A stretch of 15,144 bases of DNA from a virus. A model generated the notes under the pieces. That model saw only the letters and a list, made by a program, of their open reading frames with translations. It had not been told where the DNA came from and did not search any database. The translations under genes were made by a program, and so were the position numbers. The stretch lies in the UHGV virus genome UHGV-2113352; one strand, 5' to 3'. This document shows positions 3,601-15,144 of this stretch, piece by piece (the stretch's first letter is position 1; every line of letters begins with the position of its first letter).

Positions 3601-5364
3601 AAATGACTGATTCTCAGATGCCACTTCTCGAACAGTGAAACGAACTGTCTTCAGTCCCAAGGTTTCAGTAAACGCATCCCTCATCTCATCTAAATGCTGA
3701 GAATTTTGGTGCTGTTGACCATCTATCTCAATAATTAAACCAACTTGAGGAATGTAAAAATCTACCTGTCGGTTCTGGAATTGTTCAACGTAGACCTGAG
3801 TCATATCGTAAATCTGAACTTCAGGGAGCATTAGTTGTTTTACAAAAATGTACTCACCGAAATACTTTGGAATCAGCTCATCAAAAAACCTTTTCGCTGG
3901 GTAGTACCCAGAATGCTTGTTGCCTCGAATCAATCTATTCCAAAAAACTGGCTTATCTGACACAAGAGCCTGAGCTGATGTATTAAGACCGCTCTTCTCC
4001 AGTTCAATGCCAAATGCCTTCCTCAGTTTCCGCGAGGCTATTGTTGGCTTCCCTCTCTGAAGCATATTCTTAAGAACTTGAATTGCTGCAAATAGCTGTC
4101 CAGACGCCGCTTCAGACGAGATAGAATACTGGAGAAGATTGTGGAAAATGAAGTTATGGTTGGTTCTCGCGTAGTTAGCAGAAAACTTCTTGCTTACAAG
4201 CCTGCTACTAGACTTCGACCTGACATGTCTAGATAGTTCACTTTCGTCCGCCAGCGAGTCGATGATTGGGTTGTACAAATCTGAAAACAGTTGGTTATTG
4301 TGTTGTTGTTCTTGGCTGTCAGTGCCTAGCTCCAATCTATAGAGAGTTTTAACCAACGTAAAAATGTAAATACTTGAATTCGGAAAAGCTTGAGATAGAC
4401 AGCGTGTTATCTCATCAGTTGTAGCCCCCGAAGTTAATACGTCGTCAATGATCAGAAATGTCGGATTTGAATTAGCTTCTATTGAATCAAAATCGGCTTT
4501 ATAGGCACCTCTGACCTGGTGGAGTCTTTGTGCTGCAGTGCAATTAGTCGATTTATCTAATACGTGATCTTTCTCTAATATCTTAGGTTGGTAAGAAGCC
4601 CCTAAAGCAACAGCCAGCGATTTGCCCAAGGTATCTAATGCTTTATCGTCATCTTCAGCCCTAAGCTCAGCGTGACCTAACGCTCGAACAACTATATCTA
4701 TGGCTGGGAATGAAGGAGCTAGCTCAACAGTCTTGTTAACCCAGCGGCGAACAGAAGTATTCTTGTTATCCTTGAAAGACCAAACTTCCTGTTTGATACC
4801 ATCTAAATAGAATCCCAGATGAAGTTTATTCCCAGATTGTATTAACTCAGAACGTCCAGTTCTTGCGGAGCTCCGCGTCGAGTTTTTTCCAATAAGCTCG
4901 GAGAGACTGCTTATTCCCTTATGTGACGAATCGATCTCCGAGGCAGAACCCCAATCTACTGAGAAAAACTCAACTCCTGCATTGGAAGCAGCGTCTCGAT
5001 CTAGGTTACTATCTCCTAAATAAATTGACTCGTCGGCGCTAACACCGAAGTACTCGAGAATACGAGTAACGCCCTCAGGGCTCGGCTTATGCTGCGTTAC
5101 ATCATGGTAGGCTACTACATAATCAACAGTGATACTGAAGTGTTTGAGTAGCCCCTGAACGTAGTTCGAAGGCGCATTCGAGAAGATAGCAACCTTGATT
5201 CCAACCGACCGAGCCGTTGTAACAAGGCCGACAACGTCCTGATTGATGACACAACCATTAAAGTACCTGGGTATGTCTCTCCATCGGCCAGCTGACCGAA
5301 GTGGTTCGAGGCTTGATGTATCAATAAGCGTGTCATCAAGATCGAGGACGATGACCTTTATCAC
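688..5364 (-). CDS. Giant multidomain protein: N-terminal HAD-type phosphatase, phosphoribosyltransferase (PRTase), DUF559 (Vsr-like) endonuclease-like domain, RecQ-like SF2 helicase, and an unassigned ~400-aa C-terminal region
   Basis: 1558-aa uninterrupted ORF. HAD motif I LDLDDTL (aa 7-13) and motif IV GDSNLD (aa 117-122), nt about 4945-5364. PRTase PRPP-binding motif FLIIDDVLTSGATT (aa 303-316, nt 4417-4458). DUF559-type motif VDFYIPQVGLIIEIDGQQH followed by ..RD..L..G..RF (aa 534-577, nt about 3565-3957). RecQ-type helicase motifs: Walker A LPTGSGKS (aa 836-843, nt 2836-2859, checked against DNA), VIDEAHCLSEWGHDFR (aa 938-953, checked), LTATA (aa 975-979), YQEAGRAGRD (aa 1142-1151). GTG start at 5362-5364 overlaps the TGA stop of the upstream DprA-like gene (GTGA); SD-like AAGGTGG sits 6 nt upstream. 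Confidence 0.85.
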   Translation of the reverse strand: MIKVIVLDLDDTLIDTSSLEPLRSAGRWRDIPRYFNGCVINQDVVGLVTTARSVGIKVAIFSNAPSNYVQGLLKHFSITVDYVVAYHDVTQHKPSPEGVTRILEYFGVSADESIYLGDSNLDRDAASNAGVEFFSVDWGSASEIDSSHKGISSLSELIGKNSTRSSARTGRSELIQSGNKLHLGFYLDGIKQEVWSFKDNKNTSVRRWVNKTVELAPSFPAIDIVVRALGHAELRAEDDDKALDTLGKSLAVALGASYQPKILEKDHVLDKSTNCTAAQRLHQVRGAYKADFDSIEANSNPTFLIIDDVLTSGATTDEITRCLSQAFPNSSIYIFTLVKTLYRLELGTDSQEQQHNNQLFSDLYNPIIDSLADESELSRHVRSKSSSRLVSKKFSANYARTNHNFIFHNLLQYSISSEAASGQLFAAIQVLKNMLQRGKPTIASRKLRKAFGIELEKSGLNTSAQALVSDKPVFWNRLIRGNKHSGYYPAKRFFDELIPKYFGEYIFVKQLMLPEVQIYDMTQVYVEQFQNRQVDFYIPQVGLIIEIDGQQHQNSQHLDEMRDAFTETLGLKTVRFTVREVASENQSFISKINSIISQIQLVDSLERNGVLTPPNGISLLNYQEAYENGVDVTDSRLRLTSALRFQILLLELLERGQIRLGELKKLFIVNRDGTDFAEAALDDLNDLLSNIFRLIGIEEKRIEVALIESDELPSERSGENIFIDFSLLERYDDSFQVNQDVIYSRTDYFDFYRNFEDSDAVSIETSQLIDYDFFELSCSNPITYKLDLSPGSEQRESLRYFLSNLFLPYLEDVDFREGQVGIIGSALSKNGTIGLLPTGSGKSICYQLSAVLQPAVSFVVCPIKSLMYDQKADLDSIGFTRSNFITSDLKAGEKAKVQRDFGRGKYFFVFISPERFQTHAFRKEMLAIGLDLSFAYAVIDEAHCLSEWGHDFRTSYLNLANTIERFAPSASYIGLTATASVNVLKDIQTEFDIPDDFVRTPMDFTREELSFHVIDDKGRKGDAVVELVSEMEGKWNSDGEDGNKAGIIFTSTVNGAKGCYSLAGRISTLLKMDVRYFSGSAPKMGGLQGEAFDRYKRQVQDDFKENKYRLLTATKAFGMGVNKGNIAYTVHFGIPGSMEALYQEAGRAGRDKKLFKEVPADCYVLLTKEPNSAILDKIWDASTNVKDLKEYVKSLSRDSDLNTNLFLMTNGLDTINDEFKLMANVYEFFKYNQEHNTVTITARQFGTEKFKLEKAIYRLSQLGIVSDWVIEDFFNGTLSVEFQCLSEEGLEKKIEHTVRKYDPEFKLADVFSSDNQYYKILCDKLRKGSIDKSQFIFLVLLLWSYDHFVYNRRQSQKNVYEHCSLFAEGRMDGKEFKEKLEGYFRHDKSSQLLLNMAENSVSVRLWPSVFFETDEEEGSEHLVSSEKMTILRGQISRFLESYKDNAFLNYLSGVLRLASDEFDDADGERRMASSFDRLISDNRDEALELVRKTMQLKPIFSENARSRFARLVHEKFEDLDFLGEVNEELGDPFSYHTLLAPLAIRLEKLTSLYKGINW

Positions 5365-6347
5365 AGCAGGCCACCTTTTGCTTTCAATGACCCAAATGAA
5401 CTCGCGATATCTTCTAATTGAAGACGAATATCTTCATAAGATTCGCTCGTGTATGGTATCGCCCTCCCTTCGTTAACTAGCTGTTGAGTTCCTGAAATTG
5501 CCTTGATAGTAAGATCTGGATACTTAGCTTTATGTACGTCAGGAACGAAGACAGGACGCATCATAGAGATAGCAGATTTGACTGCGTGCATCGTCCCACC
5601 ATCTATCGAAGTTTCAATAGCAAAGACGGCAGTAGATAAACCTGCTTGTATCCTGTCTCGCTTAGCAAAGAACGCAGGTATTGCTTTGGTTCCTGGTGCA
5701 TTCTCTGCAACTAGAAGTCCGCCCTCGTCCAATATTTCCTTAGCGAGTTCCCGATTACTTGCGGGAGAAATAGACTCCACATCGACAAGAACAGAAATCG
5801 TTGGTGTTTTGGCATCTAATGCCGCGCGATGAGCAATTGTATCGATACCCAGTGCAAGTCCACTGACTATCGTGAAGCCATAAGTCGCAAACTTTTGAAT
5901 AGTTTTAATCGTTAGGGTTTCACCCTTGGGGGTATTTTCACGAGTTCCTACAACAGCTAATGAAAGCCTATTCTCTAAGAGATTTAGATTGCCTTTACAG
6001 TAAAGAAAGGGTGGAGGTTTTGGGAGATCATATAACGAAATTGGATAGTTTTTCGAACCGAAGATAACAATCTCAACTCCTTTATTTTTGAACGAATCAA
6101 TCTCTGTTTTTACTTCGTCCCTGAGAGCCTGGAAGTTCGCAGCGTCGAAGAAACTTTCGAGAGTTGCTCGAGATTTACCATTTGAGATTTTCAGATTGGA
6201 GGAGTTACGTACCAGTTCTTCGAGTGTTGACACTCCGCTGTACGCTGAAAACTTTAAGATTGACAGAACAGTTTCATCACCAACGCTCATTAACTTCTTG
6301 AGAACAAGAGCATCTACAATGTTCACTTCTCCCCCAAAGAACGACAA
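5361..6347 (-). CDS. DprA/Smf-like (SLOG superfamily) Rossmann-fold protein; first gene of the candidate defence operon
   Basis: 328-aa ORF. The central region (LAVVGTRENTPKGE..IVSGLALGIDTIAHRAAL..TISVLV..GGLLVAENAPGT..FFAKRDRIQAGLS..VFAIETSIDGGTMHAV) follows the conserved pattern of the DprA Rossmann domain (GxR.., SGLAxGID..AH..AL, FxxRNRiIaGLS, ..SG). The first start on the track is TTG at 6345-6347; the true start may be the downstream GTG (codon 8) or ATG (codon 20). Confidence 0.75.
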   Translation of the reverse strand: MSFFGGEVNIVDALVLKKLMSVGDETVLSILKFSAYSGVSTLEELVRNSSNLKISNGKSRATLESFFDAANFQALRDEVKTEIDSFKNKGVEIVIFGSKNYPISLYDLPKPPPFLYCKGNLNLLENRLSLAVVGTRENTPKGETLTIKTIQKFATYGFTIVSGLALGIDTIAHRAALDAKTPTISVLVDVESISPASNRELAKEILDEGGLLVAENAPGTKAIPAFFAKRDRIQAGLSTAVFAIETSIDGGTMHAVKSAISMMRPVFVPDVHKAKYPDLTIKAISGTQQLVNEGRAIPYTSESYEDIRLQLEDIASSFGSLKAKGGLL

Positions 6348-6460: not shown

Positions 6461-7672
6461 TCAAACTAATGCAGCTATGCCTTTTACCTTGCTTAAAAGT
6501 TCAAGCTGTCGTGAATAAGGTTTTGCGCAATAGTAGGCTTTGATAATCTGCCCCGGTGTCGCATCGCCGGGGTCGAGTCCTTCCTCGCCCAAACACGCTA
6601 CTTTGACATTAAGACCGATACTGGTCAGTCGCCTGGCTGCGGCCATCGTGTTGCGTATAGCTTGCTTTTCACTATCCCACATCATAATCACATTACGTAA
6701 TCCACGCGCCTTGAGCGTCAGGAACGCGCCCAACTGATCTTCTGCATCCTGAGTGGTGTTACCAGATAGATGCATCCCGAACGTTCCTATCGGTTCCACG
6801 TAATCGCGTAATGTTTCTTCATCAAAAATAGCTCGTTTAACCCCCATAACATCGAACGCCCCCTCACAGACAACTACAGTCTGTTTGCCGACTGCATTGT
6901 GGCCGTTGTAGAGAAATTTACCCGATGCTGGCAGCTGCATGGGGAACAGATACCGGCGTTCTGCTGCACCGGTAATGTCACGACCCTGGAAGGTCTTCAT
7001 CACGCCATCCAGATCGTAAACCGGTATCAGTATTCGCATATCGAATACCTGTCCTTTGACCTGGTCTGTGTACGGATCGACGTATGCGTGCTTGCCTTCG
7101 ACGCAGTAACGCAGATCAAAGTATTTGGCCAGCTCCGGGGAAATCTGGCGCTCCACCAGATAATCAGGAAGACGACCGTCAATGGGGAGTTCGTAATGGC
7201 GCGGGAGAGCTACCGGTCCTTCCAGTTCAACCTTGCTGGCCAGTACGATCTCTTCCTTCTTCGGTGCCCATCCTTGTGAGATCAGCGCGTTCTGGACGTA
7301 CTCTTCAAAATCGCGACGAGATTTGCCGCTGTAATGCTTTAGGAAGACCAGCTTGTTGAACTGAATCTTTTCGGGATGATCACCTGCAAAGCATTTGCCG
7401 ACACCACTGGTCAGGTTGAAATAAACCTTCCAGTTTGAGCTGCCGCATACCGGACACTCTTTAATGTTGACCTCTCGTCCGCGAGTACTGACTCCACCAC
7501 GACGGTAGATGATCCCTTCCATATCGAGCCATTGCTCAAAATCCAGCTCGGTCAGTAATTCTTTCAAGTCGCTCACGTTCTTACCCCTATTTTTTGCAGG
7601 TAATATCTTGATAAGCCTCGGTATTTGAATATCATAAAGGCTCATGTGTTTTTTCTTTTGTGGTTTTGGCAA
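6461..7672 (-). CDS. DNA primase, phage T4 gp61-like (zinc ribbon plus TOPRIM)
   Basis: 403-aa ORF. Zinc-ribbon motif CPVCGSSNWKV..C..DH; the stretch ILIPVYDLDGVMKTFQGRDI..VVVCEGAFDVMGV resembles the T4 gp61 primase core (..IPIYN..G....FQGRAL..VYVLEGPIDSLF) as I remember it. Lies directly downstream of the helicase gene, as gene 61 follows gene 41 in T4. The track start is TTG 7670-7672; an in-frame ATG at 7643-7645 (MSLYDIQ..) is a plausible alternative start. Confidence 0.7.
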   Translation of the reverse strand: MPKPQKKKHMSLYDIQIPRLIKILPAKNRGKNVSDLKELLTELDFEQWLDMEGIIYRRGGVSTRGREVNIKECPVCGSSNWKVYFNLTSGVGKCFAGDHPEKIQFNKLVFLKHYSGKSRRDFEEYVQNALISQGWAPKKEEIVLASKVELEGPVALPRHYELPIDGRLPDYLVERQISPELAKYFDLRYCVEGKHAYVDPYTDQVKGQVFDMRILIPVYDLDGVMKTFQGRDITGAAERRYLFPMQLPASGKFLYNGHNAVGKQTVVVCEGAFDVMGVKRAIFDEETLRDYVEPIGTFGMHLSGNTTQDAEDQLGAFLTLKARGLRNVIMMWDSEKQAIRNTMAAARRLTSIGLNVKVACLGEEGLDPGDATPGQIIKAYYCAKPYSRQLELLSKVKGIAALV

Positions 7673-7700
7673 AAGAGAAATTTGTTCTCTTCTGGAGACA

Positions 7701-7736
7701 GGCGTGGAGAGTGTTTCCCCACGCCTTCTTTTTTAG
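7701..7736 (+). terminator. Hairpin plus T-run between helicase and primase genes, oriented as a plus-strand intrinsic terminator
   Basis: GGCGTGG (7701-7707), 11-nt loop, CCACGCC (7719-7725), then TTCTTTTTT. The T-run follows the stem only on the plus strand; on the minus (coding) strand it is an A-run preceding the stem. The T-run overlaps the helicase stop codon (7733-7735). Confidence 0.3.
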
Positions 7737-9073
7737 AGGACGTCCATAATGCGTTCGATGAATCGCATTTGTTCGAGGTTCTGCTTAACGCGGATGCTTA
7801 CGCCGCCTTTCTGGTTACGTGAACCAGCGAAGTAAAGACGCGCTTCGCCTTTCGCTTCTTCTTCTTCCGTTTTGTTGATAGTGATAACGAGGTCAGCGAT
7901 ACGCACCTTCTCGATGTTGTCCGCTGCGTGCATCATTGTAGCCACCTCAGAAGCGCCACCTTCTCTGTTAGTCTGCGATGCCGTGATGCCGGCAACGTTG
8001 TGTTTGTCGTACAGCGCACGCAGGTCAGTGTAGATGCTGCGAATGTTAGCGCGGTCGTCGCGGAGGTCGTAGCTGGCACGCATCAGGTCAGCGTAGTCGA
8101 CCACAACCATATCGGGGACCATACCGTTGGCTTTCATGCTGCCCAACATACGGTCCAGATCTGCGGGCGACATGCTTCCGGACGGTCGTTCAACAATCCA
8201 CAAACTTCCCACGCCTTTCGTCGCACCCAGCTCCGCCAGTTTGCGATGGACGTCATCGCGACGTTCCACCAGCCTGGACATTTCGGTCTCAGACAGACGG
8301 GCGTCAAAGCGATCTGACAGAATGGAGGTGTGAACTTCCAGCGACAGATACAGGACGTTGTAACCGGCAAGCGTGGCGTTGATGGAAAACTCCCCCATCG
8401 CCGTCGATTTACCAGACTTAGCGAAGCCCATAAATAGCACCATTTCACGCTTTGCCCAGCCTTTCTGGTAAAGCAGCTTGTCGAGCAGCGGGAGGCCGGT
8501 AGTGATGCTGTTTGGCACGTAATCGTCGGACGCTTCGTACTCACGGGCCTTGTAACGCTCCGCTGATTCTGCGAAGTAATCGTAAATGCCGGTCGCTTCG
8601 TTAGAGCCAATTTGCTGGACCTTAGCCATGATTGCCATCGCGCCCTGGAAATCGCCCTTCTCTTTCATCTCAGCCGCTTTAATTAGCGCATCGTCGAAAG
8701 CTACGCTTTTAGCAAATGTCGCGACCTGGTCGACCATGTACGCCGTATCTGACAGCTTCTCAGCGAGAATGCGCTTAAACGCCTCAACAACGTCAGGGAA
8801 CAGCTCTTCGCGGATCGTCTTATCGCGTTTGGCGCGTTTGAGCATGTCGAGGATGGCTGATGATGATGGTGCGCTCTTATACATTCTGTAGTAGCCCGAC
8901 ACCATGTTAACCAGAATGGAGTTAGCCGCATTAGAGAACTGGTTTGGGGCAACCAGATCGCCTGCGCGAGTCAGAAACTCATGGTCGCGACAGAAGTAGG
9001 CAGCGAGTCTATTCTGGAAGTCGTCGTCGAACTCTTCAGACAACCCTCGTCCTGTGTGGCAAAGTTCGGTCAT
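7733..9073 (-). CDS. Replicative DNA helicase, DnaB family, phage T4 gp41-like
   Basis: 446-aa ORF. Walker A GFAKSGKST; NVLYLSLEV and VVVDYADLM segments and the C-terminal region parallel T4 gp41 (NVLYISMEM, IIIVDYLGI) as I remember it. ATG start at 9071-9073 with SD-like AAGGAAAG 6-7 nt upstream on the minus strand. Confidence 0.8.
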   Translation of the reverse strand: MTELCHTGRGLSEEFDDDFQNRLAAYFCRDHEFLTRAGDLVAPNQFSNAANSILVNMVSGYYRMYKSAPSSSAILDMLKRAKRDKTIREELFPDVVEAFKRILAEKLSDTAYMVDQVATFAKSVAFDDALIKAAEMKEKGDFQGAMAIMAKVQQIGSNEATGIYDYFAESAERYKAREYEASDDYVPNSITTGLPLLDKLLYQKGWAKREMVLFMGFAKSGKSTAMGEFSINATLAGYNVLYLSLEVHTSILSDRFDARLSETEMSRLVERRDDVHRKLAELGATKGVGSLWIVERPSGSMSPADLDRMLGSMKANGMVPDMVVVDYADLMRASYDLRDDRANIRSIYTDLRALYDKHNVAGITASQTNREGGASEVATMMHAADNIEKVRIADLVITINKTEEEEAKGEARLYFAGSRNQKGGVSIRVKQNLEQMRFIERIMDVL

Positions 9074-9092
9074 GTGCTTTCCTTTGATACTT

Positions 9093-9112
9093 AAACAAAT
9101 TGTTTTCTAATA
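9093..9112 (-). promoter_or_regulatory. Candidate promoter/operator upstream of the helicase gene (motif B, copy 1)
   Basis: Plus-strand AAACAAATTGTTTTCTAATA; read on the minus strand it is TATTAGAAAACAATTTGTTT. It contains the inverted repeat AACAA-N-TTGTT, lies 20-39 nt upstream of the helicase ATG, and has a -10-like TAGTAT/TATTAG with a -35-like TTGATC 17 bp further upstream (plus 9132-9137). It matches 18 of 20 positions with 12013-12032. Confidence 0.4.
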
Positions 9113-9133
9113 CTAGAAAATCCAGATAGGGGA

Positions 9134-9859
9134 TCAACAGAATCGCCGTGCTTCTTCCAGTTCTTCCGGGAAATGCGCATAAATTACACGCTCAGGTACG
9201 ATTTCCATCAACCAGACTGCGGAGAAGATGATGCGGATGCGTTTATCTCGGGTAATGCCACGCAGACGCTCCAGAATCCACTCAAAATAGCGTTCTTGAA
9301 TCGGGTCGTGCTGCATGTCTCCCAGATACTTAAAACTCACCAGAGAGTCATCCAGACGGGTTACAGCGCGTTTGGCTAACTTCTCTTCGAATATCTCGAT
9401 CAGCTCGGGCTGCCAGAGATGCTGGGGGCGAGGCAATTTGTCCCACAGACGGCGCGCAGCTGCGGACAGAACGGTAGAAATGAAGTAGTCATAAGAGCAG
9501 CAGTACTGGTCGGCAAACTGGCGTGCTTTCCAGAGAGACGTTTTGTTGACCGTCGACAACTCCTGATATGGCACACGCTTCAGACCGGTTGTGAATGGAG
9601 CCGTCTCATAGTGTTCACGACCATGCGACAGCATGATGTATGAGTACTGGCGCTTGTATGCCTCAGTGAAAAGGCATGTGGCCATGAGCGGGTGCATATC
9701 GCGATAGTCAAACCATTTGGTTTCGAACAGTTCCGCCTCGTCCTTGCAACGTGACAGGCCAATGTTCTCCGCGACCCACTTATCCATGACTGCGGTGTTC
9801 CACTCTGTCATGAAATCGTACTGGTCATTGTCGATAGTGTTGAAGAAGATCTGGCTCAC
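9134..9859 (-). CDS. Hypothetical protein, first gene of the helicase-primase operon
   Basis: 241-aa ORF with GTG start at 9857-9859 and SD-like AAAGGGAA upstream. Co-directional and closely spaced with the helicase gene. No family recognised by eye. Confidence 0.55.
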   Translation of the reverse strand: MSQIFFNTIDNDQYDFMTEWNTAVMDKWVAENIGLSRCKDEAELFETKWFDYRDMHPLMATCLFTEAYKRQYSYIMLSHGREHYETAPFTTGLKRVPYQELSTVNKTSLWKARQFADQYCCSYDYFISTVLSAAARRLWDKLPRPQHLWQPELIEIFEEKLAKRAVTRLDDSLVSFKYLGDMQHDPIQERYFEWILERLRGITRDKRIRIIFSAVWLMEIVPERVIYAHFPEELEEARRFC

Positions 9860-9871
9860 ATGATTCCCTTT

Positions 9872-9893
9872 AATAGGTATGTACTTACTTATC
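9872..9893 (-). promoter_or_regulatory. Candidate operator (motif A, copy 1) upstream of the 241-aa gene and replication operon
   Basis: AATAGGTATGTACTTACTTATC; the 15-mer TAGGTATGTACTTAC (9874-9888) is identical to 14611-14625. Imperfect inverted repeat around the central TGTACT. Lies 13-34 nt upstream of the GTG start at 9859. Confidence 0.4.
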
Positions 9894-9964
9894 TAAGTGA
9901 GCGAATCATAGCGACTGGAGATATTTTTGGGAAGTGGAAACGGAAGGGAGTTGTTCTGGTGGGT

Positions 9965-9978
9965 GTCTTTTAAAAGAC
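9965..9978. promoter_or_regulatory. Perfect 14-bp palindrome GTCTTTTAAAAGAC in the divergent intergenic region
   Basis: Self-complementary 14-mer, flanked by CGGAAG (left) and CTTCCG (right) inverted segments and followed by an AT-rich tract (about 9990-10035). Lies between the divergently transcribed replication operon and the GIY-YIG-like gene. Confidence 0.35.
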
Positions 9979-10159
9979 CTGCTTCCGTATATATTTAATA
10001 AGTTACTTATTATTTATATACAGAAACAGGCATAACTTGTCGTCTTAGACACCCAGAAGCTCTACACTTTGAGCCTGTAAAATTGATTAAAAACTTATGT
10101 GTAAAATAGAACGCATTAGTCAGTAGCTAAGAGATGATTTATCGGTATACGCGAGATCA

Positions 10160-10897
10160 TTGGATAAGGCTAAATACTATGTTTACTGTCTCTATGATAC
10201 AGAAGACAAGATGAAAAGACCGTTTTACATAGGAAAAGGCAAATCGACTCGTTGTCTCGATCACATCAAGTATCCCGATGACTCTCCCAAATCCATGCGG
10301 ATCAAAGAACTTTTGGCTAATAAAAAATTAGGCATAGATATTCTTCGTCATGGTATGGATGAAACCACAGCCAAACTTGTTGAGGCGACATGCATCGACC
10401 TTATGGGGGTCGGAGAGCTTACGAATAAGGTACGAGGAAGTGGTTCCATGATGGGCAGAATATCACTGGACGCCTACCATCACTTAGTGCTGCAAGAGGA
10501 AACTGAAATTGCTCCTGAGCACGCCGGTCTTGCCTTCCTGCTAAACAGCACCTACAAGTCAGGAATGTCCGCTCTGGCATTATATGAAGCTACGCGTGGC
10601 GTATGGGCAAAGGTTCCAAGAGACGAGAATCTCAAATATGCCTACGCTACATATGGGGGCCTGATAATGGAAGTTTATCAGATTGAATGCTGGGTCAAAG
10701 CCGGTTCTCAGCAGTACTTTACAAGGGATATAGCTCTTGGCCCCGACACAAAACGTTATGAATTTGTTGGCAGAATAGCCGATGAGCATATTAGAAAACT
10801 GTATGTAGGCAAATTAATCAAGAAGCCACCAAGCTACGGCAGCCCTTTTGTGAAGGTTGGGGTGGTTAGGAATGAACATAGTGTTAGCGCGGCATAA
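10160..10897 (+). CDS. Hypothetical protein with an N-terminal GIY-YIG-like nuclease motif
   Basis: 245-aa ORF, the only long plus-strand gene in this region and divergent from the replication operon. N-terminus YYVYCLYD..KRPFYIGKGKSTRCLDH fits the GIY-(10-11)-YIG-..R..H pattern of GIY-YIG nucleases. The C-terminal ~150 aa is unassigned. Confidence 0.4.
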   Translation: MDKAKYYVYCLYDTEDKMKRPFYIGKGKSTRCLDHIKYPDDSPKSMRIKELLANKKLGIDILRHGMDETTAKLVEATCIDLMGVGELTNKVRGSGSMMGRISLDAYHHLVLQEETEIAPEHAGLAFLLNSTYKSGMSALALYEATRGVWAKVPRDENLKYAYATYGGLIMEVYQIECWVKAGSQQYFTRDIALGPDTKRYEFVGRIADEHIRKLYVGKLIKKPPSYGSPFVKVGVVRNEHSVSAA

Positions 10898-10949
10898 AGC
10901 TGACACTGTACTTATGCATTGGCGCGTACATTGCGCCAATGCATAATTT

Positions 10950-11309
10950 TTAACCTTTCTTCATCAACTCTCGTTTGATTTCATCGGTACGCATCGTGAC
11001 ATCGGCAGCTGTGATCGCCTCGTTAAGTTTCACGATGTCCTCGATTTCCTGCGGTGACTTCTCTGCCAGATGGAAAATGGCTGCGCGAATCACGTCAGAA
11101 CGGGTGAACTTCTCGAAACGAGGGATGAACTTCATCATTTCCAGCAGTTCGAAGTATTCGTCCTCCAGTGACATTGTGCGGCTTTTAATTTTCTCTTTGC
11201 CACGAGTCGGGCGTCCCTGTGGTCTGACTGGTTGGCGCAAAGGAGTTGTGTTCTTGGCCGGTGCATCAGGCTCTTTGCGCTTTGCTAGGTCACCCATTTT
11301 CATGGACAT
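10950..11309 (-). CDS. Putative partition adaptor / centromere-binding protein (ParG/ParB-like small partner of ParA)
   Basis: 119-aa ORF immediately downstream of the ParA-like gene; its ATG (11307-11309) overlaps the ParA TAA by 1 nt. Basic, Pro-rich N-terminal tail and a helical C-terminal half, as in small type Ib partition partners. Assignment is by position and composition only. Confidence 0.45.
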   Translation of the reverse strand: MSMKMGDLAKRKEPDAPAKNTTPLRQPVRPQGRPTRGKEKIKSRTMSLEDEYFELLEMMKFIPRFEKFTRSDVIRAAIFHLAEKSPQEIEDIVKLNEAITAADVTMRTDEIKRELMKKG

Positions 11310-11977
11310 TATTCTTCTTCCTCCAGACTCAACAGATAATCTACAAATTCTTCAAACTCGGCTTCCGCCTTTTTGTCGCGCTCGCTACCGGTCATTTCAA
11401 AGATAGAACGACCAGACTCTTCCGCATCATCATAGACGTTGCGGTTATATAAATTGACTGGCGCAGACTCGATGCCAAACGTCTCGACAATCTCTTTAGC
11501 CGCCAAAATGCGAGACACTTGTGATGGCAAAGCCGGGCACTGGTTCATGACCGCGCGGACCTTCACTTTATCGTTTACATTACGAACATTGTCGATAATA
11601 GGATCGATGTCACGCAGAGATTTCAAATCACGACGCTTAGGACGAAGCGGGATAATGATAACGTCGGCCATCAGCATCGCTTGTCGCTGAATTTCGGAGT
11701 CAAAGCCACCAGCATCTACCACTACAAACTCAGCTCTACCCTGAAGCGATTTTAGGTGCTTAATGATGTCATCCTGAACGTATGCAAAAGGAATCAGCTC
11801 AAGGTCTTCGTTCTGTCGACGGTCTTCACACCAGCTTGTTGTCGTGCGCTGAATATCTATATCAGTGATATAAACCTTCTTCTTCTTTTTGACTTTCAGG
11901 CAAACGGCAATTTGCTGGGCAACAGTGGATTTGCCAGGCCCGCCCTTTGTGCCGCCAACCACAAAGATCTTGGTCAT
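11309..11977 (-). CDS. parA: ParA-family partition ATPase (short, type Ib-like)
   Basis: 222-aa ORF. Deviant Walker A IFVVGGTKGGPGKST near the N-terminus and VVVDAGG (Walker A'/B-like); the size is typical of plasmid ParF/ParA type Ib ATPases. ATG at 11975-11977 with SD-like AAAGGGAA upstream. Confidence 0.65.
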   Translation of the reverse strand: MTKIFVVGGTKGGPGKSTVAQQIAVCLKVKKKKKVYITDIDIQRTTTSWCEDRRQNEDLELIPFAYVQDDIIKHLKSLQGRAEFVVVDAGGFDSEIQRQAMLMADVIIIPLRPKRRDLKSLRDIDPIIDNVRNVNDKVKVRAVMNQCPALPSQVSRILAAKEIVETFGIESAPVNLYNRNVYDDAEESGRSIFEMTGSERDKKAEAEFEEFVDYLLSLEEEE

Positions 11978-12012
11978 TGGAGAGTTCCCTTTGCGTATAT
12001 AATTATCGTCTG

Positions 12013-12032
12013 AAACAACTTGTTTTCTTATA
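12013..12032 (-). promoter_or_regulatory. Candidate promoter/operator upstream of parA (motif B, copy 2)
   Basis: Plus-strand AAACAACTTGTTTTCTTATA; minus-strand sense TATAAGAAAACAAGTTGTTT with a -10-like TATAAG and the inverted repeat AACAA-N-TTGTT. Lies 36-55 nt upstream of the parA ATG. Confidence 0.4.
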
Positions 12033-12256
12033 TGTGATATAGCCTAAATGCCTACGGCTGCGGTGTAAAGGTTATTTAGTAGGTTGTTATTGCCTATTGC
12101 TAGTAACTGTTTTCATTTGTCTGTTGAAAAAAGTGACAATCATCTCTATATTACGAGTACGGTAAATTGCCGTACACAATTTGATGACACATACGCAATG
12201 GGCTATAGCCCAGTTAAATAACCTTTGAGTCGAAAACTCAGTTTAAATAGAGAGCA

Positions 12257-12286
12257 ATGATGGCCTTCCTACATCACCGGCCATCA
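12257..12286 (+). promoter_or_regulatory. Candidate TacA (antitoxin) autoregulatory operator
   Basis: Perfect 8-bp inverted repeat TGATGGCC (12257-12264) and GGCCATCA (12279-12286) with a 14-bp spacer, ending directly before the AGGGGG SD and the ATG at 12297. Confidence 0.4.
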
Positions 12287-12296
12287 GGGGGTACAC

Positions 12297-12566
12297 ATGT
12301 CCGCACTGAAAAAGCAGCGCATCGATTTGAGATTAACCGATGACGATAAAAGCATCATCGAGGAAGCTGCCGCAATGTCTAACCAGAGCATTACCCAGTT
12401 CATGGTTAGCAGTGCATCCGAACGTGCCGTGAAGGTGATAGAGCAACACCGTAGACTGGTTCTAAGTGAAGAGTCCTGGAATCTGGTTATGGATGCTATA
12501 AGCAATCCTCCGGCACCGAACGACAAGCTGAAACGAGCTGCCAATCGTCTGAAAAGCATGGAGTAA
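12297..12566 (+). CDS. DUF1778 (RHH-type) antitoxin of a GNAT toxin-antitoxin pair (TacA/AtaR-like)
   Basis: 89-aa ORF MSALKKQRIDLRLTDDDKSIIEEAAA..SNPPAPNDKLKRAANRLKSME closely matches the TacA/AtaR antitoxin family as I remember it. Sits 7 nt upstream of the GNAT toxin gene. AGGGGG SD before the ATG. Confidence 0.8.
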   Translation: MSALKKQRIDLRLTDDDKSIIEEAAAMSNQSITQFMVSSASERAVKVIEQHRRLVLSEESWNLVMDAISNPPAPNDKLKRAANRLKSME

Positions 12567-12573
12567 TTTACTC

Positions 12574-13095
12574 GTGAGCAATACGACGATCGAGATTTTC
12601 TCTGGAGAGAACGATTATGATCTAAACGGTTTTGATTGCGGCGAAGAGTCACTAAACGCATTTTTGACCAACCACTTAAAAAGACAGCATGAAGGAAAAA
12701 TTCTTCGCGCTTATGTGCTTTGCACTAAAGAAGAAATACCAAAGGTATTAGGTTATTACACTTTGTCAGGCAGCTGCTTTGAGAAAGAAACCTTACCTTC
12801 AAAGAGTCAGCAAAAGAAAGTGCCTTATCGGAATGTCCCAAGTATCACTTTAGGCAGACTGGCTTTGGACAAATCTCTTCAAGGTCAGGGGCTTGGCTCA
12901 ATGCTTGTAACTCACGCAATGCGTGTTGTGTACAATGCATCTCTTGCGGTAGGCATTCATGGGCTTTTCGTTGAGGCGTTGAACGATAAAGCCAGGGCGT
13001 TTTATAAAAGTTTGGGCTTTATCCAGCTGGTTGGTAACAACGATCGTTCTTTGTTCTATCCAACAAAATCTATCGAAAAATTGTTCGAAGAATAA
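12574..13095 (+). CDS. GNAT-family acetyltransferase toxin (TacT/AtaT-like, aminoacyl-tRNA acetylating)
   Basis: 173-aa ORF with GTG start. Acetyl-CoA binding motif QGQGLGSMLV; size and the upstream DUF1778 antitoxin are typical of TacAT/AtaRT/KacAT modules. Confidence 0.8.
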   Translation: MSNTTIEIFSGENDYDLNGFDCGEESLNAFLTNHLKRQHEGKILRAYVLCTKEEIPKVLGYYTLSGSCFEKETLPSKSQQKKVPYRNVPSITLGRLALDKSLQGQGLGSMLVTHAMRVVYNASLAVGIHGLFVEALNDKARAFYKSLGFIQLVGNNDRSLFYPTKSIEKLFEE

Positions 13096-13101
13096 TGTGT
13101 C

Positions 13102-13117
13102 CCCCTCATTTGAGGGG
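13102..13117 (+). terminator. GC-rich hairpin immediately after the tacT stop codon (possible terminator or stabilising stem-loop in the convergent gap)
   Basis: CCCCTC (13102-13107), loop ATTT, GAGGGG (13112-13117), starting 7 nt after TAA (13093-13095). No clear U-tract on the plus strand; modestly T-rich on the minus-strand side. Confidence 0.25.
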
Positions 13118-13127
13118 AACTTGGACA

Positions 13128-13343
13128 TCACCAACCGCAAACTCTCTCTCCCATCGTATTGTGAAAAAGGATTTGGCGTTCGGTTTCTTCGGTCATTACA
13201 TCGTCATTGCTGATATAAATAGGTTCAGCGCCATCGCAGAACAACACGCTGGTGGTCTGTGGCTTAATTACGCACCCACTTATCATGCAGCTCACGATGA
13301 ATGGCAGAAGCATCTTTCTGACGTATTTCACTGTTCGTCTCAT
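13128..13343 (-). CDS. Putative o-spanin (Rz1-like outer-membrane lipoprotein), overlapping the 3' end of the i-spanin-like gene in another frame
   Basis: 71-aa ORF with ATG at 13341-13343. Lipoprotein-type signal peptide: basic n-region MRRTVKYVRK, hydrophobic MLLPFIVSCMIS and lipobox ISGC. The short mature part has further Cys residues. Overlaps 13264-13343 of the upstream gene and extends beyond its stop, the overlapped spanin architecture. Confidence 0.4.
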   Translation of the reverse strand: MRRTVKYVRKMLLPFIVSCMISGCVIKPQTTSVLFCDGAEPIYISNDDVMTEETERQILFHNTMGERVCGW

Positions 13344-13515
13344 TCACCACTTCCACTGTGCTTTGAAGACGCTTGTTATCTTCCCGCCGTTCTTTCTCTT
13401 CCATACTGCGTCTGGCCATATACCCGCCATAGGAGTATGCGCCGACAAGGACTAGAATGACGGCGGCCAGAGTGAACAAAGCGGATTTCATTTTGAACAA
13501 CAGGCCGTCGAACAT
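13264..13515 (-). CDS. Putative i-spanin (Rz-like) or holin-like small membrane protein
   Basis: 83-aa ORF. N-terminal transmembrane segment ALFTLAAVILVLVGAYSYGGY followed by a highly charged periplasmic-type tail. ATG at 13513-13515 is only 2 nt downstream of the stop of the preceding gene. Contains the overlapping lipoprotein ORF. Confidence 0.4.
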   Translation of the reverse strand: MFDGLLFKMKSALFTLAAVILVLVGAYSYGGYMARRSMEEKERREDNKRLQSTVEVVNETNSEIRQKDASAIHRELHDKWVRN

Positions 13516-13517
13516 AC

Positions 13518-14237
13518 TTACACTAATCCTTTCTGGTGCTTGCGAACCTGGGACCAGGCAATGAATGCTGCCACAAGAATGGTAGCTACGCCAAAGATGA
13601 TGCGTACCGTATCTCCACTGGAGATATTGCCTTGCGCTTTATCCATTGCGGCAGAAACTTGAGGCATAACGTCAGCAATTTGTGCAAGGCCAATACCTGC
13701 AGTGACTGTAGCACCTGTGGTTTCTTTTGTTACTGGAACGGCTTTTACAGCCTTTACCGGTTTGACAATGCCGGCACGTCGCAGACCTTCTTCGATAAGT
13801 TCTGGTGTATACCAGCTATTGGGAGTTTTCAGCGGACCTCGGCCATTTTCATGTCTAATGATCGCCTCTACCAGCGGTCTTAAGGTCTCGTAGTCATGCA
13901 GATCGATAATCATATCTGGTGCTACTCCAACGGCTTTGGATACCTCGTTCACATAAGCCAAAGTGTTGTTCTCATGTGGAGGCGCCCAGCGTTCGATGAC
14001 TTCGCGGATCGTATCAATGCTGGAGCCATCTTTTGCGCGGCGCTTGTCGTGGTAAGTAATGAGTGTCACTGCCAATGCCCGAATCCCCCACACGGGGTCT
14101 TTAAACGTGCAGAAGCGCGGTTCTGAAGAGTTGTTGACTAAGCCCTGCCACGGCGCTCCTTTATCAAGATTACCGGGGTTGTTATTACGAATGCCTCTCG
14201 GAGTTTTCATCCTTGATCTCCTGTTATTGCAATCCAT
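13518..14237 (-). CDS. Hypothetical membrane-anchored protein; candidate lysis enzyme (endolysin-like) by position only
   Basis: 239-aa ORF with ATG at 14235-14237. Conserved-looking N-terminal motif RGIRNNNPGNL; C-terminal hydrophobic helix VRIIFGVATILVAAFIAWSQV. Located between a small membrane protein gene and the spanin-like pair. No catalytic family could be assigned by eye. Confidence 0.5.
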   Translation of the reverse strand: MDCNNRRSRMKTPRGIRNNNPGNLDKGAPWQGLVNNSSEPRFCTFKDPVWGIRALAVTLITYHDKRRAKDGSSIDTIREVIERWAPPHENNTLAYVNEVSKAVGVAPDMIIDLHDYETLRPLVEAIIRHENGRGPLKTPNSWYTPELIEEGLRRAGIVKPVKAVKAVPVTKETTGATVTAGIGLAQIADVMPQVSAAMDKAQGNISSGDTVRIIFGVATILVAAFIAWSQVRKHQKGLV

Positions 14238-14559
14238 TTTTTACGCCATACGCGGCCAATCCTAAAAGCAGTACGGTAATAATGAACGACGTTATTTTCG
14301 AAACAATGCCGCCAAAGAACCCACTGGAGATGGTGTCGAGCCGGTTAAGAAGTTTGTCCAGATTGGAGTGCTGAATGCTGTATTGTGCGGGCGTCATATC
14401 GCCAAAGTAGGTTTTGAGCTGGTCATTGACCTCCTGACCAATTTCCTCGCGTATTTCTTTACCTAATTTGCCTACGACTTCCCGAGCAACGATTGAGGCG
14501 ATGCGCTCAACCTGTTCAGTTGTGACTCCCGCCATCTCGTTCGACATGTTTTCCTCCAT
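14224..14559 (-). CDS. Small membrane protein, candidate holin or antiholin (positional inference)
   Basis: 111-aa ORF with ATG at 14557-14559. Hydrophilic N-terminal ~75 aa and a single C-terminal transmembrane helix ITSFIITVLLLGLAAYGV. Overlaps the next gene by 14 nt. Confidence 0.45.
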   Translation of the reverse strand: MEENMSNEMAGVTTEQVERIASIVAREVVGKLGKEIREEIGQEVNDQLKTYFGDMTPAQYSIQHSNLDKLLNRLDTISSGFFGGIVSKITSFIITVLLLGLAAYGVKNGLQ

Positions 14560-14607
14560 GAAAAGTCAAATCGGGATGGCGTGTTTATATCATATTTTAA
14601 CCATTTG

Positions 14608-14631
14608 TAGTAGGTATGTACTTACCTACTA
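14608..14631 (-). promoter_or_regulatory. Candidate operator (motif A, copy 2) upstream of the lysis-like operon
   Basis: TAGTAGGTA-TGTACT-TACCTACTA: a perfect 9-bp inverted repeat with 6-bp spacer. Lies 49-72 nt upstream of the ATG at 14559 and shares the 15-mer TAGGTATGTACTTAC with copy 1. Confidence 0.45.
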
Positions 14632-14680
14632 TATATCTTGCAAACTAATCGTTGTTAATAATGCAGATATAATCTGCCCC

Positions 14681-15028
14681 TTACTCTGCTGGTATTGTTG
14701 GCCAGTCAATATCCGGTGCCGTTGATGTGTCAATGCGGTTCAATAAAACTCTATACTTCTTCCATGCAGTCAGCAACGATGCTTCTTCCTCCGTTGCAAT
14801 CTCCAAATCTACAGCATCCTGAAGTGGCGCAATGTGCTCGCTGGCTACCTGCATCAGACTTTTTTTTGTTTCTTCCGCTTCCCGTACCTGAAACAATTTT
14901 TCTGTTTCCTTATCCTTCTCCCAGGATGTGCCGTCCCACTTCTGATATTCCCCATCCGGTGATAACCAGGTGACATTTTCCGGTAATGGCCCAAGTTCAG
15001 AAATAAACAACGCGTCCCCTGATTCCAC
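14681..15028 (-). CDS. Tail fibre assembly protein (Tfa family), apparently lacking an N-terminal domain
   Basis: 115-aa ORF ending ..[32 protein letters not shown], the conserved C-terminal signature of enterobacterial phage Tfa proteins (TfaE, Mu U, P1 U type). The track start is GTG at 15026-15028. The same frame stays open upstream to a stop at 15128-15130 and encodes ..[11 protein letters not shown].., which looks like continued Tfa homology, with no ATG/GTG/TTG in between. Confidence 0.7.
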
Positions 15029-15144
15029 GTCATAGACCGTTTTACCCCTGTGGTCTTCAACGAGACTCCGGTAATGACTCCAACTTATTGATAGTGTTTT
15101 ATGTTCAGATAATGCCCGATGACTTTGTCATGCAGCTCCACCGA

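What the first reader, a model, noticed from the sequence alone, without database searches (positions are those of the whole stretch)
14608..14631. Shared palindromic motif A upstream of two different operons (replication and lysis)
The 15-mer TAGGTATGTACTTAC occurs at 9874-9888 and 14611-14625, each time within a roughly 22-24 bp inverted repeat centred on TGTACT (perfect 9-bp arms at 14608-14631). Both copies are in the 5' leader of minus-strand operons, about 4.7 kb apart. Such conservation in non-coding DNA suggests a binding site for one regulator (repressor, activator or late-gene factor) coordinating replication and lysis genes.
Basis: seen in the sequence. Interest (0 to 1): 0.6.

Follow-up and report, generated by a model that had tools for sequence, protein, structure and literature searches.

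The report
Dispersed operator palindrome of phage-plasmid
The two matching palindromes are real and belong to a family of about 20-30 protein-binding sites placed in front of nearly all lytic (virus-producing) gene blocks of SSU5-type phage-plasmids; the sites most likely keep those genes silent, and their sequence also matches the binding site of the host cell-division regulator SlmA.

Summary
TAGGTATGTACTTAC occurs at 9874 and 14611, and the second copy has perfect 9-bp arms. The window is part of an SSU5/pHCM2-type phage-plasmid.

These are not a private pair. They are two members of an 18-26 bp palindrome family, consensus aTRA-TARGTAAGT|ACTTACYTA-TYAt. Copy numbers per genome are about 25 in the closest full replicon, 18 in Cyrano, 22 in Klebsiella pJN2-26, about 24 in pCAV1099-111 and 14 in Yersinia pMT1. 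An Acinetobacter relative carries 29 copies of a variant, TAGTAAGCGCTTACTA. In Cyrano, 17 of 18 copies are intergenic although only 13% of the genome is non-coding.

The halves vary independently, which fits a DNA site for a symmetric protein and not an RNA hairpin. At the replication operon the site lies at about +8..+25 of a conserved sigma-70 promoter. It also overlaps the start of the CI-like repressor gene's promoter.

Best reading: a dispersed repressor operator or roadblock that silences lytic units. The binder is probably phage-encoded but was not identified.

The half-site also fits the published SlmA-binding rule (GTRAGY plus TAA flank) at every position, so host SlmA may bind these sites. 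I found no prior description of this.

The parts
14608..14631 (.). Motif A copy 1. It is a 24-bp palindrome with 18-bp core 14611-14628 (TAGGTATGTACTTACCTA), 1 mismatch to the family consensus, and scores 11 of 12 on the SlmA core rule.
9874..9891 (.). Motif A copy 2. The 18-bp core is TAGGTATGTACTTACTTA, with 2 mismatches to the consensus and 11 of 12 on the SlmA core rule. The extended site is about 9870-9895.
9905..9933 (-). Predicted sigma-70 promoter TTCCCA-17-TATGAT for the 241-aa/helicase/primase unit. It is conserved in four genomes and places copy 2 at about +8..+25.
14584..14592 (-). Extended -10 (TGATATAAA on the minus strand), invariant in four genomes. It puts the centre of copy 1 at about -42 relative to the inferred holin start site (about 14577).
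14224..14547 (-). Holin gene (107 aa from the SD-preceded ATG at 14547). It is the first gene of the lysis cassette.
13264..14237 (-). Endolysin (13518-14237) and Rz spanin (13264-13515), downstream of the holin gene.
9134..9859 (-). 241-aa protein of unknown function (phrog_2500). It is the first gene after copy 2.
6461..9073 (-). DnaB-like helicase (7733-9073) and primase (6461-7672), downstream of the 241-aa gene.

Best explanation
Both copies are operators: double-stranded DNA sites for a symmetric (dimeric or tetrameric) helix-turn-helix protein. They belong to a regulon of about 20-30 such sites that SSU5-type phage-plasmids place at the 5' ends of, and between, their lytic transcription units. 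When occupied, the site blocks RNA polymerase. At the 241-aa/helicase/primase unit it sits just downstream of the start site and acts as a roadblock. At the holin promoter it covers the -35 region. At other units it overlaps the -10 or start site, or sits beside an intercistronic terminator and would stop read-through in a genome where almost all genes point the same way. The result is that replication, structural and lysis genes stay silent while the element lives as a plasmid. The binder is most likely encoded by the element itself. The best candidate is the CI-like XRE-type repressor next to the integrase, which is not in this window. Shown here: the family, its copy number, its intergenic bias, its conservation, the symmetry and independent variation of its halves, and its position relative to conserved promoter elements. 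Inferred: repression, and the identity of the binder.
For: Copy number and significance:
- 25 sites against 0.2 expected in pEC21Z137-115K.
- 18 in Cyrano, 17 of them intergenic with 13% non-coding DNA, binomial p about 1e-14.
- 22 in pJN2-26, about 24 in pCAV1099-111, 14 in pMT1.
- 29 copies of the variant TAGTAAGCGCTTACTA in an Acinetobacter relative.

Orthologous positions are kept while the flanking DNA diverges.

DNA recognition, not RNA recognition:
- The flanks are symmetric, giving a 26-bp palindrome.
- Deviations in the two halves are independent: 25 double deviations against 29.7 expected.
- Of 511 stem cells, 80 are mismatches and 16 are compensatory.

Repressor geometry:
- The conserved TTCCCA-17-TATGAT promoter puts the 9874 copy at +8..+25.
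- The CI-like gene's promoter, TTTACA-N17-TAATAT, is followed at once by GGTAAGYRCTTACC in three genomes.
- pCAV1099-111 has three degenerate copies in its immunity region.

The candidate binder tracks the motif. The CI-like protein is present in all six replicons. Its HTH (NANNLSLIKSGK) is conserved where the motif is conserved, and changed (NQNMVSFIVRGK) where the motif is changed.

Expression: apart from the repressor gene, none of the genes that follow a motif copy in Cyrano is among the genes expressed in lysogens (PMC9928086 Table 1, compared).

Stoichiometry argues against a host factor as the dependable repressor. SlmA is present at about 300-400 molecules per cell and binds as a dimer of dimers (PMC4726725). 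About 22 sites x 5.5 plasmid copies x 4 monomers is about 480.
Against: - No binding experiment exists, and the CI-like protein has no solved or characterised homologue.
- The immunity region also holds other conserved repeats (TGATACA-type). These could be the CI operators instead.
- Several copies sit where no promoter is apparent: in the 26-32 nt gap between terminase and portal, or between a stop codon and a terminator hairpin. This placement fits a site put wherever non-coding space exists.
- The motif matches the host SlmA site so closely that coincidence is uncomfortable.
- No transcription start sites have been mapped.
- The holin copy, at about -42, is also a classical activator position.
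Confidence: 0.55

Rival explanations
1. The sites are SlmA-binding sites (SBS) and host SlmA is their main ligand. The phage-plasmid would carry an array of about 20 SBS that recruits or titrates the nucleoid-occlusion factor. Possible outcomes are protection of plasmid copies from septum closure, SlmA-mediated silencing, or a block to cell division when replicating phage DNA multiplies the sites. The last would work as multicopy SBS plasmids do.
For: - Tonthat 2011 (PMC3020112) gives the SBS as GTGAGTACTCAC, with G1, T2, A4 and G5 strongly preferred, any purine at position 3 (G to A gives the same Kd) and any pyrimidine at position 6.
- Over 82 phage half-sites the counts are T78 A73 R80 | G67 T82 A73 A69 G60 Y81, that is TAR-GTAAGT.
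- The SBS consensus oligo is AAGTAAGTGAGCGCTCACTTACGT, and natural SBS17 contains TAAGTAAAT. All nine positions of the half-site therefore agree, flank included.
- Every phage site scores 9-12 of 12 on the core rule. By hand-scoring the oligo sequences, validated SBS17 and SBS12 score about 9-10.
- The Acinetobacter variant GTAAGCGCTTAC still obeys the rule.
- Site density is about 1 per 5 kb, against about 50 per 4.6 Mb in the chromosome.
- SBS on a multicopy plasmid delocalises SlmA and blocks Z rings at 4-fold instead of 40-fold SlmA (PMC4117426).
- E. coli and Klebsiella hosts encode SlmA, and none of the six replicons encodes a SlmA-like protein.
Against: - Chromosomal SBS are not in promoter regions, whereas these sites are 94% intergenic and positioned like operators.
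- SlmA is too scarce (300-400 molecules per cell) to hold about 120 plasmid sites plus the chromosomal ones.
- The phage sites almost never use G at SBS position 3 (1 of 82) although SlmA accepts it.
- The same core occurs in Acinetobacter phage-plasmids. From memory, and unverified, that host may lack slmA; could not settle this.
- A temperate element needs its own immunity repressor.
- No publication was found linking SlmA to phages or phage-plasmids.
Confidence: 0.25
2. The palindrome is the recognition element of an activator-dependent (middle or late) promoter class, analogous to the P1 late promoters. In those, Lpa recognises a 9-bp palindrome at -22 next to a -10 hexamer.
For: - P1 late promoters read AAGTNACTT-N4-(-10), which resembles the centre AAGTACTT of this motif.
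- In 21-23 of 63 sites a TATYAT hexamer overlaps the downstream end of the palindrome, which would centre the palindrome near -20. In the Acinetobacter version this hexamer is often a perfect TATAAT.
- The holin copy is centred near -42 of a conserved extended -10.
- No canonical -35 is seen at most sites.
Against: - The TATYAT flank is equally frequent on the mirror side, so it is a symmetric extension of the site and not an oriented -10.
- The site lies 11-15 nt from start codons at several genes. At the 241-aa gene it lies downstream of a conserved complete sigma-70 promoter, a position where an activator cannot work.
- No Lpa homologue is present.
- The site also sits on the promoter of the lysogeny-expressed repressor gene.
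Confidence: 0.12
3. The element acts in RNA, as a hairpin in 5' leaders or intercistronic regions. It could be a processing site, a stabiliser, an antiterminator or a translational operator.
For: - The holin copy folds into a 9-bp hairpin (-10.8 kcal/mol, z = -2.7).
- Several copies lie 11-15 nt before start codons or directly before terminator-like hairpins.
Against: - The 9874 copy does not form the hairpin (z = -0.6).
- Across 73 sites there are 80 mismatched, 33 G-U and only 16 compensatory stem cells. Pair 3-16 shows 27 A-C mismatches in the sense strand. Double deviations are no more frequent than chance.
- The sequence itself, not the pairing, is conserved in both arms and in the symmetric flanks.
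Confidence: 0.02

Closest known systems
Dispersed C1 repressor operators of the plasmid prophage P1
   Same: Both are low-copy plasmid prophages in which one repressor is thought to control many operators scattered over a roughly 100-kb genome. The operators overlap promoters of lytic functions and of regulatory genes. The P1 record annotates such operators at ref, mat, ssb, c4, repL and lpa.
   Different: P1 operators are 17-bp asymmetric sites, whereas this motif is an 18-26 bp palindrome. There is no sequence relation: 0 hits in 50 kb of P1. In P1 the late genes are controlled indirectly through Lpa, while here the same site also precedes structural and lysis genes. The binder here is not identified.
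SlmA-binding sites (SBS) of the E. coli chromosome
   Same: The half-site TARGTAAGT fits the published specificity (GTRAGY core plus TAA flank) at every position. Both are palindromic, and the extended footprint is compatible with a dimer of dimers.
   Different: These sites are on a phage-plasmid, about 18-fold denser than in the chromosome, almost exclusively intergenic and at promoters. Chromosomal SBS are not in promoters. Position 3 is nearly always A here. Binding by SlmA has not been tested.
KorB/KorA global operators of IncP plasmid RK2
   Same: In RK2 a plasmid-encoded global repressor acts on a dozen palindromic operators spread over the backbone and coordinates many operons (from established knowledge, not tested here). 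SSU5-type elements also encode two ParB-family proteins.
   Different: No evidence links the ParB-like proteins to this motif, the sequences are unrelated, and the RK2 system controls conjugation and maintenance genes, not a lytic programme.
P1 late promoters (Lpa -22 box)
   Same: Both involve a short palindrome with AAGT/ACTT arms close to a -10-like hexamer, repeated in front of morphogenesis and lysis operons.
   Different: The arm spacing differs (AAGTNACTT against AAGTACTT). There is no oriented -10 and no Lpa homologue, and the position downstream of a complete promoter is incompatible with activation.

Membership tests
Dispersed repressor-operator regulon of a plasmid prophage (P1 C1 type, by function) | Many copies of one site dispersed over the replicon, far above chance | tested here: met
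   There are 25 sites against 0.2 expected, and 14-29 copies in five further replicons.
Dispersed repressor-operator regulon of a plasmid prophage (P1 C1 type, by function) | Sites overlap or directly follow promoters of lytic units | tested here: inconclusive
   This is clear for the 241-aa unit (+8..+25 of a conserved promoter) and for the repressor-gene promoter. At the holin promoter the site is at about -42. Several sites have no recognisable promoter. No TSS data are available.
Dispersed repressor-operator regulon of a plasmid prophage (P1 C1 type, by function) | A copy of the operator in the repressor gene's own control region | tested here: met
   TTTACA-N17-TAATAT is followed by GGTAAGYRCTTACC 29 nt upstream of the CI-like gene, conserved in three genomes. 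pCAV1099-111 has three degenerate copies there.
Dispersed repressor-operator regulon of a plasmid prophage (P1 C1 type, by function) | Demonstrated binding by the element's repressor, and de-repression on its loss | not testable with these tools
   This needs EMSA, ChIP or genetics. The only indirect support is that genes behind the motif are absent from the lysogen-expressed list.
SlmA-binding site (SBS) | 12-bp palindrome with G1 T2 R3 A4 G5 Y6 in each half | tested here: met
   The family consensus GTAAGT|ACTTAC fits fully, and all 41 sites of two genomes score 9-12 of 12. The two window copies score 11 of 12, with T at position 4 of one half.
SlmA-binding site (SBS) | Flank as in the ChIP-derived consensus (TAA-core-TTA) | tested here: met
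   The phage flank is T78 A73 R80 of 82 half-sites, against SBScons TAAGTGAGC and SBS17 TAAGTAAAT.
SlmA-binding site (SBS) | Occupied by SlmA in vivo or in vitro | not testable with these tools
   No data exist, and the library holds no paper that links SlmA with phage-plasmids or temperate phages.
SlmA-binding site (SBS) | Genomic context of known SBS: scattered in the chromosome, not in promoters | tested here: not met
   Of 18 Cyrano sites, 17 are intergenic and sit at gene starts. Chromosomal SBS are reported as not being in promoter regions.
P1-type late promoter (Lpa box) | 9-bp box AAGTNACTT, 4 nt, then an oriented -10 hexamer | tested here: not met
   The P1 boxes were extracted. Here the arms abut (AAGTACTT), and the -10-like flank is symmetric and not oriented.
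P1-type late promoter (Lpa box) | Lpa homologue encoded by the element | tested here: not met
   tblastn of P1 Lpa against three genomes gave nothing better than E = 0.9.
Structured RNA element (hairpin) | Pairing maintained by compensatory changes | tested here: not met
   There are 80 mismatches against 16 compensatory cells, with double deviations at the chance level. One of the two window copies does not fold.

The most novel reading that the evidence does not exclude
The operators of SSU5-type phage-plasmids mimic the binding site of the host nucleoid-occlusion factor SlmA. In the lysogen they would be covered by the phage repressor. On induction they would be unmasked and multiplied by replication, so that thousands of SBS-like sites pull the roughly 300-400 SlmA molecules off the chromosome. 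As delocalised SBS-SlmA complexes, these would shut down FtsZ ring assembly. This would be a DNA-encoded way for a virus to arrest host division, or in the plasmid state to shield plasmid copies from the closing septum, without any dedicated inhibitor protein.
Probability: 0.25. Interest if true: 0.85.

Novelty: new member of a known kind. Interest (0 to 1): 0.6.

Why it matters
SSU5/pHCM2-type phage-plasmids are common in E. coli, Klebsiella, Salmonella, Enterobacter and Yersinia (as pMT1). Hundreds of plasmid records matched. Their lysis-lysogeny control is essentially unstudied. A single 18-26 bp site that marks nearly every lytic transcription unit gives several things:
- a direct handle on that circuit, through operator mutations, reporter fusions and pull-down of the binder;
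- a simple sequence signature for annotating transcription units in this group;
- a testable link to host cell-division control, because the site matches the SlmA consensus.

If SlmA does bind, this would be the first case of a mobile element carrying an array of nucleoid-occlusion sites.

Tried and rejected
1. My first guess, from the IS1 end and the palindrome, was phage P1 and its late promoters. This was rejected. The window is SSU5-like, P1 has no copy of the motif in 50 kb, there is no Lpa homologue, and the geometry differs.
2. The RNA hairpin or terminator reading was rejected on covariation counts and folding.
3. An oriented -10 abutting the palindrome turned out to be a symmetric extension of the site.
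4. A phage-encoded SlmA or TetR-like binder was sought and not found, using tblastn and an HMM built from 80 SlmA orthologues against all ORFs of six replicons.
5. The exact-pattern scan of IMG/VR found multi-copy occurrences only in SSU5-like contigs. Unrelated contigs carry single TAAGTAAGTACTTACTTA strings that look like chance or low-complexity matches.
6. The genome-contig scan with the Acinetobacter 16-mer was uninformative.
7. The SlmA homologue search confirmed my query sequence and the presence of SlmA in Enterobacterales. It lists only the top 120 hits, so it could not show whether Acinetobacter has slmA.
8. Literature searches for SSU5 regulation, and for SlmA with phages or phage-plasmids, found nothing relevant. 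The P1 genome paper and Cho et al. 2011 are not held.
9. The CI-like protein has no Pfam hit and no solved homologue.

Full report
**What the window is.** Megablast places window 9000-15144 in the SSU5 group of phage-plasmids: Escherichia phages CMS-2020a and Cyrano and Salmonella phage SSU5, at 85-89% identity. About 110-kb E. coli plasmids match at up to 99%. By synteny with Cyrano and SSU5 and from the ORF list, the minus strand carries the following:
- holin (real start 14547, after GGAGGAAAAC);
- endolysin and Rz/Rz1;
- a ParA operon (11309-11977 and downstream);
- a 241-aa protein of unknown function (9134-9859, phrog_2500);
- a DnaB-like helicase (7733-9073) and a primase (6461-7672).

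A KacAT toxin-antitoxin pair lies on the plus strand. The window's right end is an IS1 terminus.

**The observation.** The 14608-14631 copy has perfect 9-bp arms. The 9874 copy is a weaker palindrome. Both copies are intergenic and upstream of minus-strand genes.

**It is a family, not a pair.** I assembled the closest complete replicon, pEC21Z137-115K, and scanned it. The 18-bp consensus TAGGTAAGTACTTACCTA has 25 non-overlapping matches with up to 4 mismatches, against 0.2 in shuffled sequence. The counts in other replicons are:

| Replicon | Sites |
|---|---|
| Cyrano | 18 |
| Klebsiella phage pJN2-26 | 22, at orthologous positions |
| pCAV1099-111 (proteins only about 54% identical) | about 24 with up to 5 mismatches |
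| Yersinia pestis pMT1 | 14 |

An Acinetobacter baumannii relative, whose 241-aa protein is only 28% identical to the window's, carries 29 copies of a variant, TAGTAAGCGCTTACTA.

In Cyrano 17 of the 18 sites are intergenic although 87% of the genome is coding. The sites precede portal, the post-capsid genes, major tail, tail fibre, holin, the 241-aa/helicase unit, SSB, SbcCD, RNR, ThyX, Dam and others. None lies in accessory or maintenance modules such as repA, parA, toxin-antitoxin pairs, defence or fimbrial islands. Phage P1 has no copy in 50 kb. In IMG/VR only SSU5-like contigs carry several copies.

**DNA site or RNA structure.** The half-site matrix from 82 halves is T78 A73 R80 G67 T82 A73 A69 G60 Y81. 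The flanks are symmetric, which extends the site to a 26-bp palindrome, aTRA-TARGTAAGT|ACTTACYTA-TYAt. Across 73 sites in sense orientation the putative stem has 80 mismatched, 33 G-U and 16 compensatory cells. Simultaneous deviations in both halves occur 25 times against 29.7 expected under independence. The 9874 copy does not fold. The sequence of each arm is conserved, not the pairing between them. This is the signature of a symmetric DNA-binding protein.

**Geometry.** Upstream of the 241-aa gene a complete sigma-70 promoter, TTCCCA-17-TATGAT (9933-9905), is predicted and is conserved in four genomes. The palindrome starts 13 nt after the -10, at about +8..+25. That is a repressor or roadblock position, and an activator cannot work from there.

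At the holin gene the DNA upstream of the palindrome is not conserved. An invariant extended -10, TGATATAAA (14592-14584), lies 18 nt downstream, so the palindrome covers -51..-34.

The putative CI-like repressor gene is CYRAN_45. It is expressed in lysogens according to PMC9928086. Its promoter is TTTACA-N17-TAATAT, followed immediately by GGTAAGYRCTTACC in three genomes, which is an autoregulation-like arrangement.

Elsewhere the site fills tiny gaps, such as the one between terminase and portal, or sits between a stop codon and a terminator hairpin. This fits a roadblock against read-through in a genome whose genes are almost all co-oriented.

Apart from the repressor gene, none of the genes behind a site is on the list of Cyrano genes expressed in lysogens.

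**Who binds.** The window encodes no candidate. All six replicons encode a homologous XRE/CI-like protein next to the integrase. Its HTH segment, NANNLSLIKSGK, is conserved wherever the motif is TARGTAAGT. It reads NQNMVSFIVRGK in the Acinetobacter element, whose motif differs in flank spacing and centre. This agrees with the CI-like protein being the binder but does not prove it. The immunity region also contains other conserved repeats, and the protein has no characterised homologue.

**The SlmA resemblance.** The core GTAAGTACTTAC recalled the E. coli SlmA site, so I checked the literature.
- Tonthat et al. give GTGAGTACTCAC, with G1, T2, A4 and G5 strongly preferred. Any purine is accepted at position 3, and G to A leaves the Kd unchanged. 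Any pyrimidine is accepted at position 6.
- The ChIP-derived consensus oligo is AAGTAAGTGAGCGCTCACTTACGT, and the natural site SBS17 contains TAAGTAAAT.
- The phage half-site TARGTAAGT therefore agrees at all nine positions. All 41 sites of two genomes score 9-12 of 12 on the core rule.
- The Acinetobacter variant GTAAGCGCTTAC also obeys the rule.
- None of the replicons encodes a SlmA-like protein, and the enterobacterial hosts do encode SlmA.
- SBS on multicopy plasmids delocalise SlmA and block Z rings.

Four points count against SlmA as the working repressor:
- Chromosomal SBS are not in promoters.
- SlmA numbers only 300-400 molecules per cell and binds as a dimer of dimers. This is fewer than the roughly 480 monomers needed for 22 sites on 5.5 plasmid copies.
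- G at position 3 is almost never used.
- The same core occurs in Acinetobacter, which may lack slmA (from memory, not verified).

I therefore rank a phage-encoded repressor first. SlmA cross-binding is a serious and experimentally cheap alternative, or an additional layer on top of the repressor.

**Comparison with known systems.** Functionally the closest system is the dispersed C1 operator set of P1, and, among plasmids, the KorA/KorB operators of RK2. By sequence the closest is the SBS. The P1 late-promoter box AAGTNACTT shares the arms but fails on spacing, on orientation and on the absence of Lpa. I found no publication describing this motif, or any SlmA link, for SSU5-type elements. The library is incomplete, so absence of prior description is not proven.

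**Verdict.** It is a new member of a known kind of system. It carries one unusual feature, identity with the host SlmA consensus, that deserves a direct test.

Noticed in passing
window 9090-9112 and 12010-12032: A second shared element ('motif B'): CTkAAACAAnTTGTTTTCTwATA, with palindromic core AAACAANTTGTTT, lies just upstream of the helicase gene and of the parA gene. It has 9-12 exact copies per enterobacterial SSU5-type genome and none in the Acinetobacter relative. It is oriented with the genes, usually preceded by TTAAACAC..AAGA, and lies 18-80 nt before start codons. Three of the operons it precedes in Cyrano (parA-29-30, 101-102, 108-109) contain genes expressed in lysogens. It may therefore mark a different promoter or regulator class from motif A.
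   Followed up: partly
window 15070-15144 (and 14681-15028): The window ends in an IS1 terminus. Positions 15082-15144 are identical to the IS1 copy annotated in phage P1. The insertion lies next to a tail-fibre-assembly gene remnant. In relatives the tail-fibre genes continue at this point.
   Followed up: yes
window 203-6347, minus strand: An accessory island absent from Cyrano, SSU5 and pEC21Z137. It has a 1558-aa fusion protein (HAD hydrolase + DUF559/PvuRts1I-like nuclease + DEAD/Helicase_C), a DprA-like (DNA_processg_A) 328-aa protein and a 163-aa ORF. It looks like a defence or DNA-processing module. It contains no motif A copy.
   Followed up: partly
window 10160-10897, plus strand: A 245-aa ORF with a LEM-3-like GIY-YIG nuclease domain sits on the opposite strand. 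At this position Cyrano and SSU5 carry co-oriented hypothetical genes, so this is a local gene replacement between parA and the 241-aa gene.
   Followed up: no
window about 9934-9960 (minus strand), upstream of the TTCCCA -35: A TTCC-rich block (TTCCCTTCCGTTTCCACTTCC) is nearly invariant in four genomes whose surrounding DNA diverges. It may be a further binding site or an UP-like element of the replication-operon promoter. A hairpin-like GGAAGCAGGTCTTTT...AAGACC lies just upstream.
   Followed up: no
L093-L095 (A. baumannii p2016LNAB1-1), e.g. 24775, 35429, 38286, 79828: The Acinetobacter relative has 29 copies of ATTAT-TAGTAAGCGCTTACTA-TAAT, often creating a perfect TATAAT at the edge of the palindrome. 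It also encodes a sigma-70 family sigma factor (17898-18563) that the enterobacterial elements lack.
   Followed up: partly
L006 (Cyrano) 5444, 9019, 15530, 22449; L007 17884 (record 67884): Five of 18 motif A copies are followed within about 10 nt by a GC-rich hairpin, several with a T-run (terminator-like). The order is therefore stop codon, palindrome, terminator, next gene. This suggests paired roadblock and terminator insulation between structural gene blocks.
   Followed up: no
window 14545-14559: The mechanical ORF for holin starts at ATG 14559. The conserved Shine-Dalgarno GGAGGAAAAC precedes the second ATG at 14547, which gives the 107-aa length annotated in relatives.
   Followed up: yes
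L091 21729-21855 (pCAV1099-111 record 71729-71855): The immunity region of the divergent Klebsiella oxytoca element holds three degenerate motif A-like sites within 130 bp upstream of its CI-like gene. This resembles a multi-operator switch.
   Followed up: no
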